Shown: one piece after another, positions 15,001-21,000 of the stretch
Layout: each line of letters starts with the position of its first letter
How positions within the stretch are numbered: position 1 is the stretch's first letter
Assembly: GCA_965235115.1 (NCBI GenBank)
Contig: OZ249452.1
Coordinates: forward strand, 12,834,001 to 12,898,000
Direction of reading: 5' to 3'
Length of the DNA stretch: 64,000 nucleotides
From: Laetmonice hystrix
Lineage: Eukaryota
Made by a program: the position numbers

Positions 15001-18000
15001 GGGAGTCTGCTGGAGACTGATTGAGGCTGTCGCCTGCTTCAGTTCCGTATCCTCAGGCGCTTTCTCCTGAGTTACTGTGGAAACCAGAATAAATTTCTCC
15101 ATTAACAAATGTGAGCATTTAGCATTTTAAAAATCAGTATTCATTATTTGCACTGCTCAAATCCATCAAAGTTTCTATTTTTTCCACAACTGCTAGCCAG
15201 CCTAACAATAACAGACAGAAGAGAGAAATGTAAATGTAATGATCAGATCTGTTTCTTGATTGGTTAAGTTTTCTCTCTAAAGTTATCTGACCTACGTCTC
15301 TCAAACTTCCTGAATTCAAAGACGGTGGTCTTGGGCCTCCTGAAGGCCTTCTGGAGCTCAGCACTAGTCAGGTCTTCAGGTTTCTGTTTGTCAAACTCTA
15401 CAGTAGAAACGGCTGCAAACCAAGCAAGGTCAGATCTAACAGCATGCCAGGGGTCACACAGGGGACAGTGTGGGTCAAATAAAGGTCGATCTAGGGTCAA
15501 AAATAAGAAGTGTTATGGGGTCAAACGGGTTAGTGAGGGTCAAAAACAGATTTTAGTCTGGGGTTAAACACAAGTCAGGATCACTCAGAAAATTAGTTTC
15601 TGGTGGAACTTTAAGATGTTAGTCATTGTATCCGTTATATTAAATTTATAAATAGATAGTGATAATTGGCATTCCATCTATATACTTTCTCAAGCAGGAA
15701 CATTTTCTGCATTCTTGAATGTTGTACCGCAAATATTTCACACAAAAATTAGTTGAAATCATGGAAACACATTCATGCATTTTTGGGTCAATCAATGCAA
15801 GAGAAACGTTAACATCGCCAACTTACACGTTGGACCTTGCTTCAACCTTGTCCTCCAGTCTTCCCGTGGGATGACCTTGAGTGTGGTTGAACACTCAGCC
15901 TCACCGAACGGATTCTTGGCGACAACTCGAATCATGCCGTTGTCATATTCACGTGCCTTCGGAATCTCCAGGATGTGAATCATTCCGTCATAGCGAAGTT
16001 TGAATCGCTGACCCTGAAATAAATACAACTTTCTTCTATCAGCATTGTATTAATTGATCAATCCTCTCTAAATGCTGACAAATTGACCAATATATCTTCT
16101 CCAACCAAACTAGATCGTTAATAATTTAGATCTGTGGGTATTTGGGGTTTTACGCCTTGCAACAGCCAGGGTCATATCACAGCGGTGAAGATGATGATGA
16201 AAGTCAGTTTTTCTTGGTGGAGGAAATCGGAGGACCCGGAGGAAACCACCGACCAATTTAAATCTGTCATGAAAATCAGAATAAAACTTTTTTGGTGAAA
16301 ATTTATCAGACTAGATTTCTAATGAAAAGACAGCTTACCGTGATGATCATGGAGCCGTTGACCCACCAGGTGAGGCGAGGTCGTGGATGACCTCCGACCT
16401 TTACCATGAACTTGGCTGTGTCTCCCTCCTCGACCTGCAGAGGTTCTGGCTTGAGGTCAAACATTGGCGGCAGGTCGTCCGGAGTCTCAAACATCGGTCC
16501 CTTCCTGGCTTGTTCCCTGCTCACAGAGGTCAGAGGTCAAAGTTCAGAAAGGTCACATATCAGAACCAAGTTCCACCTCTGTAACTCCTCGTCCGTTAGA
16601 TAGAGTTATTGCTGCTGTGTCTCTTGATTCTGCACTTGACAATGTTTTGACATTTTTAAAAGAGTCTTACATGATCTTATATCTGAAACTTATCACTGTT
16701 ATCTCTCTGCCGACATCAGCGTTCATTACAGGTATATGTCACGATATCTGAGGTGTTAACTTGTGTCGACCTGCGAGTTTCTACAGAAAGACCTTAAACC
16801 ACATCAAAAACTTTAAAGTCAGCGGGAAATATTTGTCTCACCTTGGTCTGAAGTCCATTGTATCCATAGGACGTGGTCTGTTAAAAACATTAAGAACATC
16901 TCAGTCTCAACCAGTTTAAACAATTCAATATGAACTAAACTGATGAAATCGCATCTATTTGTTTCAGAAAGCGTTCATGTTATAAACACATCCAGACGTA
17001 TGCAGCAGAAGCAGTTAGAACCAGAAGATGCCCCTCTACCAGGCAGGGTCAGCTCATTTTTGTTCACTTTCCCTAACATGCGACAAGAGAGTCAGTGCCA
17101 TAAATTTCTCCCCATGCATGTCGTAGTATCTGCGAAACCCTGTAGTAGACATCTGTTAACTGTAATTAGTGGAGTTAGAACGAAAACAATACGTTAATCT
17201 GATGAGGACTAGTTGATTAATCCTGCAATAAGATTTCTATATGAGTGAATCGTTTCATGAAGAGGCTGAGAGATGAGTGATAGCGCCTAGTGTAGCATAC
17301 TGTTAAAGATATCTATAAATATTATATGTCAGACTGTAATATGTTGTCCGACAGCGTGCTTCTTTAGAGAGATTATCTGAGGATAAAATCAAATACAGCA
17401 GAACAGTGCCTGAACCGCAGTATCCTTTGCCATTAGTGACTGAAAAAAGCATGATTTCAATATAAATGCCATAAGCTAGACGTCATGCGGAGACAAGGAT
17501 TACGAGCGTACGGTAATTCAAAGTCCTGGATGTACTGCCGTAGTGGTGCTGGCGGTGGTGGTGGTGGTGCCTCCACCCGACGCTCTCTCTGAGGTTCAAT
17601 CGGGATGGGACGCTCCATCGGTCTGTTCAAACAACACCCGCCAGGGGGCGACACTTAGTCTCAGGTCATGTTGCGACATAGTATTTGATCACGTCAACGC
17701 TCATGCAAACATAGGGAAAGCATCTTAATCTTTACCTCCAGAGTTCTTTTACACTGACATTTATTTTATTCCTAAAATCAAACAATACATGCAATTACAA
17801 ACACATTGTTTTATATCACAGACAACAATTCTTTCTTTCTCAATTTGCTCATCTTTTCGCGGAAATCTGCAGCAGTTTTTTGTAAATCAGCAGGGAAGGA
17901 ACTCCATGTAAGAACACACAAGTCATGCCAACACTGATTTTATTAACCTTTCTGGAGCCCTACGCAACTCTCTTGTTCTGCAATGGAACAAAAATCAAAA

Positions 18001-21000
18001 TAATCTAACTCTTCTGAGAAATGACACTAGAATTTTGAGAATTACGTTAAAGTTGAAACAACATAAATACCAGATTTTATCCTTGGTACAACAATATTCG
18101 CATCTTGACATGATTATGTTAATCATGCTAGCACACAATGAAAGGAAACTGAAGCCATGTGACTCAGAGAACTGCCAAAAGACCTGAAACAGGTTTGATC
18201 TGTAATGAAAAGACTGTCAAAGGAACAAGAAGTATTCAAGAGAAATTATCTGAGAGATGAGTAAGCTGAAGCTGGGGACCGACCGCAGCATACCAAGAGA
18301 CCTGAAAGGGTAACATTGGAAATGCCAAGTGTTAGTGGCAAGTAAGAAGAGTTTTAACATGTTCCATAGTTTGGTAGCACTGACAAGCTGATGAAGCATC
18401 AAGAATAAATAATAGTTTCTTTTGTACACTAGACCCAACCAAAACGTACCTCCTTTAGGTAAAGCGGTTTCAAGCGGTCATTAAGGGTACGACTCAGAAT
18501 ATCCCTTAGGGAGCTCAGAATGAGTTAATTAAAGTCAAGAGCAATCTCTGCTCAGATTCAGAAAATCCGGAAAGAAATTATCGCAGCCACTGGGACATAA
18601 GCAGGGTATTGGCCAATAAGACGTAATTAAAAATAATTCAAAATGTTGCAGGAGTTTGAAAATCATTCAAGTTAAACATAAATGTTGTATAATTTTTTAC
18701 ATATTGCACAAATTAAACTAAATGGGGAAGTGGACACATGTGCAGTCAAAAATAATGGGGAATATTCTCCGGATGACGTAAAAGAAAGGGGGGAAAGATG
18801 CTTTAATTGGATGCAACCATTTCCAAGCATCACACCTTTCTTCCTCATCCACTTCCCACGGCCTCCTGTGGCGTATAGCCGTCAGCCTGGGAATCTTGAA
18901 CATGTGTGGTTCTGTCTTCTGCAGCTGCCCGGGCCCGCTAGGAACCGTTTCCGTATCCACACTACCAGGCGGTTTCTCGGCCTGGTAATGTTTACGGTCA
19001 GTTCTGCAAGATGTTACACAACATTTGTAGGCTTCATCTGGGCGGAGACCCTGCACCGATATGGTACCAACTGATAATCTATGGTTAGTAACATCTAATA
19101 TGAGTAGGACAACCACTAAAGCCGAAGAAATACCACATTTGACTCGTAACCACTAGCCACACTAAGATCTAGAAGTTTCCATCTAACTCTACCTCTAAAA
19201 CTCTCTCTAGACCTTGTTTCAGGCACGGTCATGGGTCCTAATCCGAACCTTTGTAACATCTTCTATGATTGGTTGTTTGAAGATAATCTAACCAGAAACC
19301 AGGTCCTGAATAACTCGGACATGTTGTTAGTAATGATTGTTAGCGTTAGGCGTGACCTTGATCCGATGACCCCTGCAAGTTTTGGCAAGCACTAAACATG
19401 TAAACATATATGGAGCACCTGATAACTTCTTGGTTTAACGTCACAGGTGGGGATGAGGGTGAGTGCGAGTCACTGGAAACAAAAATAAACATATCATAAC
19501 ACAAGGGGAGCACACCTACTTCTACAGGGTTTAATTTTGAATGTTTGATTCTGGCCAAATATTGGTTTCATAAAGTCCATATATAATTCATCAAATGTGA
19601 ACGATTTTCAATTTTGAGATAACATCATCAAAATAATCACCTTAACCCCTTATTTAAAGACCAATTCTGTTTTTATGGAATTTTATAAAATCACCTCTTC
19701 TGTTCGTCTTTCACAGACCCAAGTTCCACATCGTCACCAGTAACAGTTGACGACTCCGCAGTTGCTCCTTTCGGAACTTTAGCCACTGAGCCAATGACCA
19801 TTTCATACTCGGTCAGGCTGGTTCGCGTCTCTGCCCGTTTTTGTTTTTGTGGAACTTTTGGTACGGGTTTAACCAGAGTGGGAGAGACTGGGGGAAGGTT
19901 AGTGTCAGGAAGTTCGGGGGGAGGAGAGACAGAGTCCATCTCCGTGGGTGAAGAGATACGATCGAGATTTTCCATTGATGTTGCTGAAGAACTTGTGCTA
20001 TAAATGGAAAGACACATTATAGGAATGAGTTTAAGGGAAAAAGTGGGTTCGTTAAGCCGCCGTCACACAACATAAAGGATCAAACACTTGGTGAGATATG
20101 AGGAAAACATGGCAACATAAAACTGGTCATATGACATTTCAACATGGTCTTAACATTAACAACACGTGGAATACACCAAACGAAATCAATGCAGGTTGTA
20201 TTTAACACGTTTTAAAGTTCTTACAAAGCGTGAATCTCAAGCACATTATCTTTCACAAATAAATATTCAGAATATTTAGCCCAACTTTCTTGTTTTCTTA
20301 CTTGAAATCATGTGTTTGAAGGTTACCACAATTTAACTTCGCTTTGCTTCCCACTCCAGAAAACAGCTGATATCAAGATAATGATAATTCGTGCCTTTTA
20401 GCTATTCTTACTAACTATACAAAAATACTACTATCTAATGGCCAAGTACATGCTAAACCAAACGTGTATCTTTGAATCTTTGCCAAATTCTAAAAATATT
20501 TTATGCGAAATCATCAAATGATTTATAAGTAGGCATAAATCTAACTGGAACCGAAGTGAATCTATGTAGCAACATTTTTATATGACTCCTCGAGTACAAA
20601 TGATGGTTAATTCCTCCCATAGCTTTCTTTCTATCGGTACTACTCAACACTCTTATCGAAGTCTAATATCTACAACAAAAATCTCTCAAAATCAATTTAT
20701 TCTGGAATTTCTGCAGTTCTACTTCTGACATGCCATGCAGCGTTTGCTGCGAACCTGATTTGTTCTGGACCCATCATAACTGGCCAACTGCTTTGATCAG
20801 AAATGGCGTTTCCATACTGGTCGTATTCTTCGTAATCAGTCGGTGGAACATAGGTTGGGAAAACGTTGAACGTGTCTACTGGGGGACTGGATTGGGAAAG
20901 GTTGTAGAGAGAAACATTGTCAGATATTCTCACCTAAAATATACTTGTAACTTACAGGTATATTTAATTATCCCACGACAAGTTTCCACTTCATTTCACA

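What the first reader, a model, noticed from the sequence alone, without database searches (positions are those of the whole stretch)
16842..19997. Dense cluster of phase-2 cassette exons and microexons between Ig13 and Ig14
Seen: between a phase-2 donor (21125) and a phase-2 acceptor (16516) lie several frame-preserving 2-2 exons: 303 nt (19695-19997), 30 nt (17948-17977, TRELRRAPE), 111 nt (17512-17622, polyproline) and 36 nt (16842-16877, PRPMDTMDFRP). A longer open exon sits at 18718-19078. The introns carry several minus-strand TGCATG motifs (about 17113, 17702, 17789) and ACTAAC motifs (about 19085, 19326). Established: these are RBFOX and Quaking/HOW elements that govern muscle and neural microexons. 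Inference: a combinatorial splicing hub that tunes linker length and binding motifs at the Z-disc/I-band junction.
Basis: partly seen in the sequence, partly recalled or inferred. Interest (0 to 1): 0.65.

Follow-up and report, generated by a model that had tools for sequence, protein, structure and literature searches.

The report
Candidate linker exons in titin-like gene
A long intron between two immunoglobulin-domain exons of an invertebrate titin-like muscle gene holds two convincing and two plausible small coding exons that could lengthen a flexible linker, but nothing here shows that they are alternatively spliced or controlled by the proposed splicing factors.

Summary
The coordinates, frames, AG/GT borders and motif positions are as described. 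Being frame-preserving is not evidence: 188 such segments lie in the 4,608 nt interval, against 166 on the opposite strand and 175.5±34.6 in simulations. Individually, the 303 nt and 111 nt segments have linker-type codon usage that no open control segment matches (0 of 261; 0 of 4,558). The 30 and 36 nt segments stand out only jointly, on splice sites plus coding score (0 of 842 and 1 of 842 intron controls). The "longer open exon" ends in a stop, its tail looks non-coding, and it is doubtful. No outside evidence was found: three searches on the 303 nt peptide were blank, and collinear relatives have either an extra Ig domain or a short linker here. Local TGCATG enrichment is not significant (P=0.083) and ACTAAC only nominally so. 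GCAUG is enriched on the sense strand across all the gene's intron-like sequence (65 vs 34.4±6.3). The gene is a titin/"connectitin"-type gene. Verdict: probable linker exons; cassette use and RBFOX/Quaking control unproven.

The parts
21444..21743 (-).
   Evidence: Pfam I-set 6.3e-17. Collinear with P0122 residues 2958-3063. Best solved-structure matches are titin. Donor AAC|GTGAGT scores 6.2, phase 1; acceptor copy at 21743.
21125..21188 (-). Conserved 64 nt exon (APRKPTPERKLVIPRRTTPT), phase 1 in, phase 2 out; start of the linker
   Evidence: Frames and sites. Motif PEPERKL[IV]IP aligned in 6 of 8 relatives' linkers with z 4.3-9.4. Linker codon score in the top 0.54% of the null.
20818..20886 (-). 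Unlisted 69 nt phase 2-2 candidate (PPVDTFNVFPTYVPPTDYEEYD); an alternative donor at 20755 gives 132 nt
   Evidence: Passes the joint filter. Resembles P0122 'PPIEHTVPSYVQPETYSDDEMY' at the matching place (z 3.3). Intrinsically unremarkable as the 132 nt form (7 of 642 controls match).
19695..19997 (-). 303 nt phase 2-2 candidate exon, S/T/P/E/K/V-rich linker peptide with a PEVK-like stretch
   Evidence: Linker codon score 0.301 against a null of -0.248 +/- 0.118, 0 of 261 as high. Joint controls 0 of 103 and 0 of 68; 0 in 1.5 Mb of simulation. Composition matches known linkers. No homologues.
19419..19472 (-). Unlisted 54 nt phase 2-2 candidate (DSHSPSSPPVTLNQEVI)
   Evidence: Acceptor 5.0, donor 2.9, coding 0.18; passes the loose joint filter only. 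Weak.
18718..19078 (-).
   Evidence: stop. Weak acceptor 1.9. Coding score 0.036 quantile for the 243 nt part and 0.905 for the tail. No Pfam hit. No polyA signal between 18718 and 17978. The plus strand is also open here. Doubtful.
17948..17977 (-). 30 nt phase 2-2 microexon candidate (TRELRRAPE)
   Evidence: Acceptor 7.3, donor 4.3. Joint controls 0 of 842 and 0 of 625. Expected 0.012 per interval in simulation, but 1.55 on splice sites alone. LRRAPE recurs in 2 of 267 proteins, at a non-matching place.
17512..17622 (-). 111 nt phase 2-2 candidate exon with a polyproline core (EAPPPPPPAPL)
   Evidence: Coding score 0.414, 0 of 4,558 null segments as high. Joint controls 0 of 762 and 0 of 617. 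Weak donor 2.5. Only low-complexity proline matches elsewhere.
16842..16877 (-). 36 nt phase 2-2 microexon candidate (PRPMDTMDFRP)
   Evidence: Best splice sites of the set: acceptor 5.8, donor 7.2 (AAG|GTGAGA). Joint controls 1 of 842 and 0 of 625. Expected 0.009 per interval in simulation, 0.61 on splice sites alone.
16345..16516 (-).
   Evidence: Pfam I-set 1.7e-07. Collinear with P0122 residues 3229-3297. Aligns to P0124 from PMFETPDD onward. Acceptor score is low, 0.5.
17702..17793 (-). Two sense-strand TGCATG (17702-17707, 17788-17793) between the 30 nt and 111 nt candidates
   Evidence: 155 and 241 nt downstream of the 30 nt donor; 166 and 80 nt upstream of the 111 nt acceptor.
17113..17118 (-). 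Sense-strand TGCATG
   Evidence: 394 nt downstream of the 111 nt donor, 236 nt upstream of the 36 nt acceptor.
19084..19331 (-). Two sense-strand ACTAAC (19084-19089, 19326-19331)
   Evidence: 19084 lies 6 nt upstream of the acceptor of the doubtful long segment; 19326 lies 88 nt downstream of the 54 nt candidate.

Best explanation
The window carries a minus-strand giant gene of the titin/connectin-sallimus ('connectitin') kind. CCDC141/Zormin-like spectrin-repeat exons lie at about 55-64 kb, followed by an array of I-set Ig exons with proline- and glutamate-rich linkers. The finding lies in the 4.6 kb between a conserved 64 nt exon behind one Ig domain and the next Ig exon. This interval most likely holds extra coding exons for an unstructured linker: a 303 nt S/T/P/E/K-rich exon and a 111 nt polyproline exon (probable), and 30 nt and 36 nt microexons (possible). 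All are phase 2-2, so each adds residues (101, 37, 10 and 12; 160 in all) without disturbing the frame. The 64 nt exon can also join the Ig exon directly, which is the arrangement that best matches the short linker of two relatives. Shown: the sequence features, the coding-like statistics and the gene's family. Inferred: that the exons are used, that their use varies between tissues so as to tune linker length and proline-based binding motifs, and that any named factor controls them. The long open segment at 18718-19078 is probably not a normal internal exon.
For: Gene identity: I-set hits in 5 of 10 tested ORFs and a Spectrin_7 hit. P0122 (6,732 aa) matches collinearly from 64 kb to 1.6 kb in 34 pieces at 41% identity, covering both spectrin and Ig parts. 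Best solved-structure matches to the flanking Ig are titin. The SESTD1-CCDC141-titin 'connectitin' architecture is published (PMC12198301: abstract and sections 18-19). Backbone: phases link 21444 (phase 1) to the 64 nt exon, and then phase 2 to 16516. The 64 nt exon is conserved in 6 of 8 relatives' linkers. Candidates: on linker-trained codon scores, E303 is matched by 0 of 261 null segments and E111 by 0 of 4,558, and both score at or above held-out true linker pieces (means 0.16-0.37). Joint splice-plus-coding controls: E303 0 of 103 and 0 of 68; E111 0 of 762 and 0 of 617; E30 0 of 842 and 0 of 625; E36 1 of 842 and 0 of 625. Simulated expectation per interval is at most 0.012 for each. 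Composition of E303 (PEVK 0.40, FWYC 0.01) and E111 (0.47, 0.06) matches proven linkers (0.35-0.41, 0.02-0.04) and not Ig domains (0.23-0.25, 0.08-0.09). The interval holds no repeat copies, Rfam families, tRNA-like elements or tandem repeats.
Against: There is no outside support. E303 found nothing among proteins of 176-2,000 aa (163 candidates, none scored), of 55-175 aa (1 candidate, none), or in the atlas. Of 28,057 tblastn pieces from 267 fetched proteins, only 1 overlaps 16537-21124, and it belongs to the Ig14 exon. The collinear relatives carry no counterpart of E303, E111, E30 or E36 above z=3. The bare frame criterion and the density of exon-like loci are at chance level. The Ig-trained codon model gave only 0.02-0.10 quantiles. 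The linker-trained model was chosen after that and largely measures amino-acid composition, which a proline- or serine-rich chance frame could mimic. The thresholds are each candidate's own values, so they were set after the fact. E111 has a weak donor (2.5, 6th percentile) and E303 a modest acceptor. On splice sites alone, 0.6-12 equally good segments are expected per interval.
Confidence: 0.55

Rival explanations
1. One reading: a combinatorial splicing hub whose microexons are switched by RBFOX (UGCAUG) and Quaking/HOW (ACUAAY) between muscle types and neurons.
For: Symmetric phases allow free combination. TGCATG lies 155 and 241 nt downstream of the 30 nt candidate and 80 and 166 nt upstream of the 111 nt one. 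(U)GCAUG is the Rbfox motif in vertebrates and Drosophila and is over-represented beside muscle-specific exons (PMC8742874 passages). QKI, RBFOX2 and MBNL regulate a muscle microexon (PMC12064062, search listing and start of abstract only). Sense-strand GCAUG is enriched across the gene's intron-like sequence: 65 against 34.4 +/- 6.3, 0 of 100 shuffles as high, antisense 30.
Against: Local TGCATG is 4 against 1.63 expected, P=0.083, and 50 of 297 sliding windows do as well. GCATG is 10 against 5.59, P=0.058. ACTAAC shows no enrichment (11 against 8.5 +/- 2.9) or strand bias (11 against 9) across the intron-like sequence. Its local P of 0.008 is uncorrected. One cited site is 6 nt from a doubtful acceptor and another (19898) lies inside the 303 nt candidate. 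The tested Drosophila sls event depended on Bruno1 and was unchanged on Rbfox1 knockdown. No expression data exist here.
Confidence: 0.15
2. They are real exons but constitutive: the linker is always long, and the run of phase 2-2 exons simply reflects how a disordered linker was built.
For: The coding-like statistics say nothing about skipping. Other linkers of this gene are long and constitutive within large exons. Four relatives have 166-192 residues between the two Ig equivalents, similar in size to the full set here.
Against: Those relatives fill the space with an Ig domain, not a similar linker. Two relatives have a 47-52 residue gap that fits direct joining of the 64 nt exon to the Ig exon. 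Weak sites at E111 and E303 are typical of regulated exons, which is my general knowledge and not a call.
Confidence: 0.2
3. None is an exon: the interval is one long intron and the reader picked the best-looking of about 190 chance frame-preserving segments.
For: 188 against 166 against 175.5 +/- 34.6. Loci density is not significant (42 of 300 simulations). There is no homologue for any candidate. A segment longer than 240 nt arose in 35% of simulations.
Against: No control segment of comparable length matches E303 or E111 on codon score (0 of 261; 0 of 4,558), and none in 1.5 Mb of simulation matches jointly. Their composition equals that of proven linkers. The conserved 64 nt exon, used as a positive control, behaves the same way.
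Confidence: 0.1

Closest known systems
Differentially spliced I-band/PEVK linker exons of vertebrate titin (connectin)
   Same: This is a giant Ig-array muscle gene in which short, frame-symmetric exons encode proline-, glutamate-, valine- and lysine-rich unstructured linker. Splicing of I-band domains gives many isoforms (PMC12198301, introduction passages). Composition here is PEVK 0.40-0.47.
   Different: No sequence homology of the candidate exons to any fetched titin-like protein. The site lies between two specific Ig domains near a conserved PEPERKLIIP motif, not in a long PEVK array. No isoform data. Titin's known regulator in the cited text is RBM20, not RBFOX or Quaking.
Drosophila sallimus (sls: Zormin / kettin / D-titin) and the 'connectitin' gene architecture
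   Same: Spectrin-repeat (CCDC141/Zormin-like) exons and titin-like Ig exons sit in one transcription unit (PMC12198301 sections 18-19; PMC12657953 passages). sls has fibre-type-specific alternative splicing (PMC8742874 passages).
   Different: Identity to the best collinear relative is only 41%. The tested sls event is Bruno1-dependent.
RBFOX/QKI-regulated striated-muscle microexons (for example Snap23)
   Same: Exons of at most 51 nt with nearby GCAUG and ACUAAY motifs (PMC12064062, listing and start of abstract only).
   Different: Here neither use of the exons nor any effect of the motifs is shown, and local motif counts are not clearly above chance.

Membership tests
Titin/connectin-sallimus ('connectitin') gene family | Long array of I-set Ig domains with titin as nearest characterised relative | tested here: met
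   I-set in 5 of 10 ORFs tested. Top solved-structure matches are titin: 6fwx 4.8e-47, 3b43 5.9e-45.
Titin/connectin-sallimus ('connectitin') gene family | CCDC141/Zormin-like spectrin repeats upstream in the same unit | tested here: met
   Spectrin_7 1.1e-07 at 60582-60956. A single protein, P0122, covers both spectrin and Ig parts collinearly. The architecture is described in PMC12198301. A SESTD1/Sec14 part would lie outside the window and was not seen.
Titin/connectin-sallimus ('connectitin') gene family | Named orthologues / phylogenetic placement | not testable with these tools
The representative library carries no names.
Cassette (alternatively spliced) exon | Frame-symmetric exon with usable splice sites | tested here: met
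   All four are phase 2-2. Site scores fall within the range of the gene's supported sites, 6th-61st percentile.
Cassette (alternatively spliced) exon | Both inclusion and skipping junctions observed in transcripts | not testable with these tools
   No transcript or eukaryotic genome collection was available. Protein searches on E303 were blank.
Cassette (alternatively spliced) exon | Relatives showing the skipped or included form | tested here: inconclusive
   P0124 and P0144 have 47-52 residue gaps compatible with the skipped form. No relative shows the included form.
Microexon (at most 51 nt, definition in PMC12064062 abstract) | Length at most 51 nt with flanking splice sites | tested here: met
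   30 nt and 36 nt. Splice-site sums are 11.6 and 13.0.
Microexon (at most 51 nt, definition in PMC12064062 abstract) | More exon-like than chance segments of that size | tested here: inconclusive
   Jointly 0 of 842 and 1 of 842 intron controls, with 0.012 and 0.009 expected per interval in simulation. On splice sites alone 1.55 and 0.61 are expected. Coding quantile is only 0.044 each.
RBFOX-regulated exon | (U)GCAUG in flanking intron within a few hundred nt | tested here: met
   Distances are 80-241 nt for the 30 nt and 111 nt candidates and 236 nt for the 36 nt one.
RBFOX-regulated exon | Motif density above background at this locus | tested here: not met
   TGCATG P=0.083, 50 of 297 sliding windows as high; GCATG P=0.058. 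The enrichment is gene-wide.
RBFOX-regulated exon | Dependence of inclusion on the factor or motif; motif conservation | not testable with these tools
   Needs expression, knock-down or related genomes.
Quaking/HOW-regulated exon | ACUAAY enriched near the regulated exons | tested here: inconclusive
   Local count is 4 against 0.78, P=0.008 uncorrected. Across the intron-like sequence it is 11 against 8.5 +/- 2.9, with sense 11 against antisense 9. The bipartite half-site was not examined.

The most novel reading that the evidence does not exclude
In this lineage an ancestral Ig domain that sits at this exact place in four relatives (P0122, P0198, P0142, P0135) was lost, with no remnant detectable. 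It was replaced by newly arisen, lineage-specific disordered linker exons (303, 111, 36 and 30 nt) that have no homologue anywhere searched. That would be a domain-to-spring swap at a conserved position of the titin-like filament, possibly under tissue-specific splicing helped by the gene-wide excess of GCAUG.
Probability: 0.25. Interest if true: 0.5.

Novelty: new member of a known kind. Interest (0 to 1): 0.3.

Why it matters
If the exons are used, they show how an invertebrate titin-like protein varies the length and proline-motif content of one inter-domain linker. That is the same principle by which vertebrate titin tunes muscle stiffness. They would also give a concrete site for testing splicing control in non-model muscle types. 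As it stands this is an annotation-level result: two probable and two possible exons to add to a gene model, plus a caution that frame-preserving microexons and hexamer motifs occur abundantly by chance in long introns.

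Tried and rejected
(1) Finding the gene's own annotated product. The word-indexed search of the 515-residue exon reached only proteins of 903-2,575 aa and gave no close relative. The representative search listed no identical protein; the best collinear single stretch was 62% (P0139). (3) Homologues of the 303 nt peptide: none. (4) The Ig-trained codon model had too little power, since even the conserved 64 nt exon reached only the 0.16 quantile. 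I replaced it with a linker-trained model. (5) 'LRRAPE' of the 30 nt candidate as a deep titin motif: rejected as evidence. In P0142 and P0135 it follows the Ig14 equivalent, where the window has its own counterpart REDWRTRLKQGP. (6) A weak likeness of PRPMDTMDFRP to 'RRIDATMESQP' in P0124 did not reach z=3. (7) A remnant of the lost Ig domain in the interval: none better than E=0.38. (8) Transposon or repeat origin: no second copy in the window; no Rfam, tRNA or tandem-repeat hit. (9) The long segment as an alternative terminal exon: no AATAAA or ATTAAA between its stop and 17978. (10) ended in script errors after or before printing; one search was an empty script. A joined spliced model was not built or searched; exons were handled one at a time. 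Not checked: metagenome and viral contig collections (closed), the bacterial/archaeal genome collection (not relevant), and the supplements of the papers cited, which may list motif instances or splice events.

Full report
WHAT IS THERE. The window is eukaryotic DNA of 38-48% G+C with no N. One large minus-strand gene occupies it. Stop-to-stop frames and Pfam show I-set Ig domains in 5 of the 10 frames tested. These include the two that flank the finding: 21436-21756 at 6.3e-17 and 16306-16536 at 1.7e-07. A spectrin-repeat hit (Spectrin_7, 1.1e-07) lies at 60582-60956. The frames holding the 303 nt candidate and the long open segment gave no Pfam hit. I do not take the window for human.

CHECK OF THE OBSERVATION. 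All stated coordinates hold. The 303, 30, 111 and 36 nt segments each follow an AG behind a pyrimidine-rich tract and precede a GT. Each is open only in the frame imposed by a phase-2 acceptor. The upstream phase-2 donor at 21125 closes a 64 nt exon (21125-21188) that enters in phase 1. The Ig exon before it ends at 21444 with a strong phase-1 donor. The acceptor at 16516 is phase 2. The 'longer open exon' 18718-19078 is 361 nt and ends in an in-frame TAG, so it is not frame-preserving. Only an internal donor at 18836 would make it a 243 nt 2-2 exon. The motif positions are right.

IS IT MORE THAN CHANCE? As described, it is not. The 4,608 nt between 21124 and 16517 contain 188 AG..GT segments of at least 27 nt that are multiples of three and open in phase 2-2. 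The opposite strand has 166, and 200 first-order Markov simulations give 175.5 +/- 34.6. Eighty-eight of the 188 are of microexon size, and a segment longer than 240 nt arose in 35% of simulations. I then applied one loose filter to all sequence: both splice scores at least 1.5, their sum at least 7, coding score at least 0. The interval has 7 distinct loci, against 3.70 and 3.15 per equal length of intron-like control on the two strands. Of 300 simulated pieces, 42 reach 7. 'Dense cluster' is therefore not a significant property.

INDIVIDUAL CANDIDATES. A codon model trained on Ig-domain codons had little power, giving quantiles of 0.02-0.16 even for the conserved 64 nt exon. I retrained on the long linker stretches inside three large exons of the same gene. 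I compared each candidate with all open segments of equal length from intron-like sequence elsewhere in the window. The 303 nt segment scores 0.301 against a null of -0.248 +/- 0.118 (0 of 261 as high). The 111 nt segment scores 0.414 (0 of 4,558). The 64 nt positive control reaches 0.0054, and the 30 and 36 nt segments 0.044 each. The 243 nt part of the long segment reaches 0.036 and its tail 0.905. Held-out true linker pieces average 0.16-0.37. The null segments overlap one another, so their effective number is smaller than these counts.

Splice-site matrices were trained on 31 donors and 30 acceptors next to homology-supported coding blocks. They place the candidates within the gene's normal range. 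The 36 nt segment is best (acceptor 5.8, donor 7.2), followed by the 30 nt one (7.3, 4.3). The 303 nt segment is middling (3.4, 5.0), and the 111 nt segment has a weak donor (4.8, 2.5).

The next test asked how many control segments of the same size class match a candidate on both splice-site sum and coding score. E303 is matched by 0 of 103 (minus-strand introns) and 0 of 68 (plus strand). E30 is matched by 0 of 842 and 0 of 625, E111 by 0 of 762 and 0 of 617, and E36 by 1 of 842 and 0 of 625. In 1.5 Mb of third-order Markov sequence the expectation per 4,608 nt is 0 (E303), 0 (E111), 0.012 (E30), 0.009 (E36) and 0.009 (243 nt form). On splice sites alone it is 0.97, 12.0, 1.55, 0.61 and 2.42. 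These thresholds are each candidate's own values and so were set after the fact. The linker model mainly reflects amino-acid composition.

Composition agrees with the linker reading. E303 and E111 have P+E+V+K of 0.40 and 0.47 and aromatic-plus-Cys of 0.01 and 0.06. Proven linkers give 0.35-0.41 and 0.02-0.04. Ig domains give 0.23-0.25 and 0.08-0.09. Ranking all 251 frame-preserving segments of at least 12 nt, 11 pass the loose filter.

OUTSIDE EVIDENCE. The 303 nt peptide found nothing among proteins of 176-2,000 aa (163 word-sharing candidates, none scored). It found nothing among proteins of 55-175 aa (1 candidate, none) or in the language-model atlas. The 515-residue exon 3773-5320 found 10,709 representatives at E of 0.001 or better, none of them identical. 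The closest single-stretch matches are P0139 (62%) and P0229 (55%). I mapped all 267 fetched proteins back on the window by tblastn, which gave 28,057 pieces. Only 1 overlaps 16537-21124, and it belongs to the Ig14 exon.

Chaining shows that P0122 (6,732 aa) is collinear from the spectrin exons at 64 kb to the Ig exon at 1.6 kb, in 34 pieces at 41.4% identity. The flanking Ig domains correspond to P0122 residues 2958-3063 and 3229-3297. The gap between the two equivalents is 166 residues in P0122, 192 in P0198, 169 in P0142 and P0135, and 47-52 in P0144 and P0124. In the four long-gap proteins the space is filled by an additional Ig domain. The interval keeps no remnant of that domain (best E 0.38). 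The 64 nt exon's motif PEPERKL[IV]IP is conserved in 6 of the 8 linkers examined (z 4.3-9.4). The unlisted 69/132 nt segment resembles P0122's 'PPIEHTVPSYVQPETYSDDEMY' at the matching place (z 3.3). None of E303, the 243 nt form, E30, E111 or E36 reached z=3 against any of the 8.

A relaxed blastp gave only low-complexity proline matches (best E 0.021 for E303, 0.002 for E111). 'LRRAPE' from the 30 nt candidate occurs in 2 of 267 proteins (P0135, P0142). There it follows the Ig14 equivalent, within 'REDFRSVLRRAPEP', and the window has its own counterpart 'REDWRTRLKQGP' in that place. I treat it as coincidence or at most a lead. The short-linker relatives fit a direct join of the 64 nt exon to the Ig exon. 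P0124 runs '...PRRPEP EQQ...', where the window would give '...TTPTP EQA...'. The Ig exon aligns from PMFETPDD onward. Names and isoforms of these proteins could not be obtained.

OTHER FEATURE TYPES. There is no second copy of any part of the interval in the window. There is no Rfam match at E of 0.1 or better, no tandem repeat inside 16517-21124 and no tRNA-like element. No AATAAA or ATTAAA lies between the stop of the long segment and 17978, so reading it as an alternative terminal exon has no support.

MOTIFS. Window-wide, TGCATG occurs 44 times on both strands against 32.5 +/- 6.1 in shuffles (5 of 100 as high). ACTAAC occurs 28 times against 32.1 +/- 5.7. On the sense strand within the interval, TGCATG is 4 against 1.63 expected from the rest of the window (P=0.083; 50 of 297 sliding windows as high). 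GCATG is 10 against 5.59 (P=0.058; 49 of 297). ACTAAC is 4 against 0.78 (P=0.008; 26 of 297, mostly windows overlapping this same place). These P values are not corrected for the region being chosen after the motifs were seen.

Two TGCATG lie between the 30 and 111 nt candidates, 155 and 241 nt after the former and 166 and 80 nt before the latter. One lies 236 nt before the 36 nt candidate. One ACTAAC sits 6 nt from the weak acceptor of the doubtful long segment, and one lies inside the 303 nt candidate. In all intron-like sequence of the window (41,048 nt, with the candidates removed), sense GCATG is 65 against 34.4 +/- 6.3 in dinucleotide shuffles (0 of 100 as high) and against 30 antisense (binomial P=0.0004). 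TGCATG is 19 against 11.7 +/- 3.5 (2 of 100). ACTAAC is 11 against 8.5 +/- 2.9, with no strand bias. A possible Rbfox signature therefore belongs to the gene as a whole. The Quaking/HOW motif has no general support.

WHAT IS KNOWN. The gene's architecture matches the published 'connectitin' idea. SESTD1-CCDC141-titin form one ancestral unit, conserved as CG15822-Zormin-Sls in Drosophila, with transcripts that span the parts (PMC12198301: abstract, passages and sections 18-19; PMC12657953: passages). Titin's I-band domains are differentially spliced, and RBM20 regulates titin splicing (passages of PMC12198301). Rbfox proteins bind (U)GCAUG in vertebrates and Drosophila, and the motif is over-represented beside muscle-specific exons. 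In Drosophila, however, the tested fibre-type-specific sls event changed in bruno1 mutants and was unchanged on Rbfox1 knock-down (PMC8742874, passages). MBNL, QKI and RBFOX2 regulate a muscle microexon (PMC12064062; I saw only the listing and the start of the abstract). Three points are my recall and come from no call: downstream GCAUG favours inclusion and upstream favours skipping; ACUAAY is the Quaking/HOW element; and the matching part of vertebrate titin lies near the Z-disc/I-band border. Supplements of these papers were not available.

CONCLUSION. The interval most likely adds optional or constant pieces of disordered linker between two Ig domains of a titin-like protein. My estimates that each is a true exon are about 0.75-0.8 for the 303 and 111 nt segments, about 0.5 for the 36 and 30 nt ones, 0.3-0.4 for the unlisted 69 nt one, and about 0.2 or less for the long open segment. 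Cassette behaviour is plausible but unshown. Symmetric phases, some weak sites and relatives with a short linker all point that way. Control by RBFOX or Quaking at this site is not supported beyond the presence of the motifs.

Noticed in passing
window 55000-64000 (-) together with the Ig array 1-53400 (-): Spectrin-repeat exons (Spectrin_7 hit at 60582-60956) and the Ig array belong to one protein in the collinear relative P0122 (residues 180-854 map to 64000-56600). This is the CCDC141/Zormin-plus-titin 'connectitin' layout described in PMC12198301.
   Followed up: partly
window 21713-22153: An 83-108 nt minisatellite repeats the 3' splice site and the first 22 nt or so of the upstream Ig exon. 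The same 25-base acceptor-plus-exon-start string occurs 5 times on the sense strand (22101, 22017, 21909, 21826 and the real one at 21743). That places four decoy acceptors in the preceding intron.
   Followed up: partly
all intron-like sequence of the window (41,048 nt): The Rbfox core GCAUG is nearly twice as frequent as expected on the transcribed strand: 65 against 34.4 +/- 6.3 in shuffles, with 30 antisense. ACUAAC is not enriched.
   Followed up: yes
window 15792-16049 (-): The stretch after the second Ig14 exon, 'IPREDWRTRLKQGP', resembles 'REDFRSVLRRAPEP' / 'KQDFRAVLRK', which follow the equivalent Ig in P0142, P0135 and P0198. This is a short conserved post-Ig motif.
   Followed up: partly
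window 16517-21124 compared with P0122 3100-3205, P0198 880-985: Four relatives carry an extra Ig domain between the two flanking Ig equivalents. The window and P0124/P0144 lack it, and no remnant is detectable.
   Followed up: yes
window 45009-45686 (-): A large exon-like frame of repeated proline-rich units ('PPPQPKPYVPPPPPP...') runs directly into an Ig-like start, with no Pfam hit. It may be a PEVK-like spring segment of the same gene.
   Followed up: no
window 32463-44660: A 12 kb stretch has no homology-supported exon between two Ig exons. It contains many G+C-rich open frames on both strands and repetitive peptide patterns (for example around 36152-36857). It may hold repeats or further unannotated linker exons.
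   Followed up: no
window 17939-17944 (-): An AATAAA hexamer starts 4 nt after the donor of the 30 nt candidate (AAG|GTTAATAAAATC). It could matter for donor strength or premature polyadenylation.
   Followed up: no
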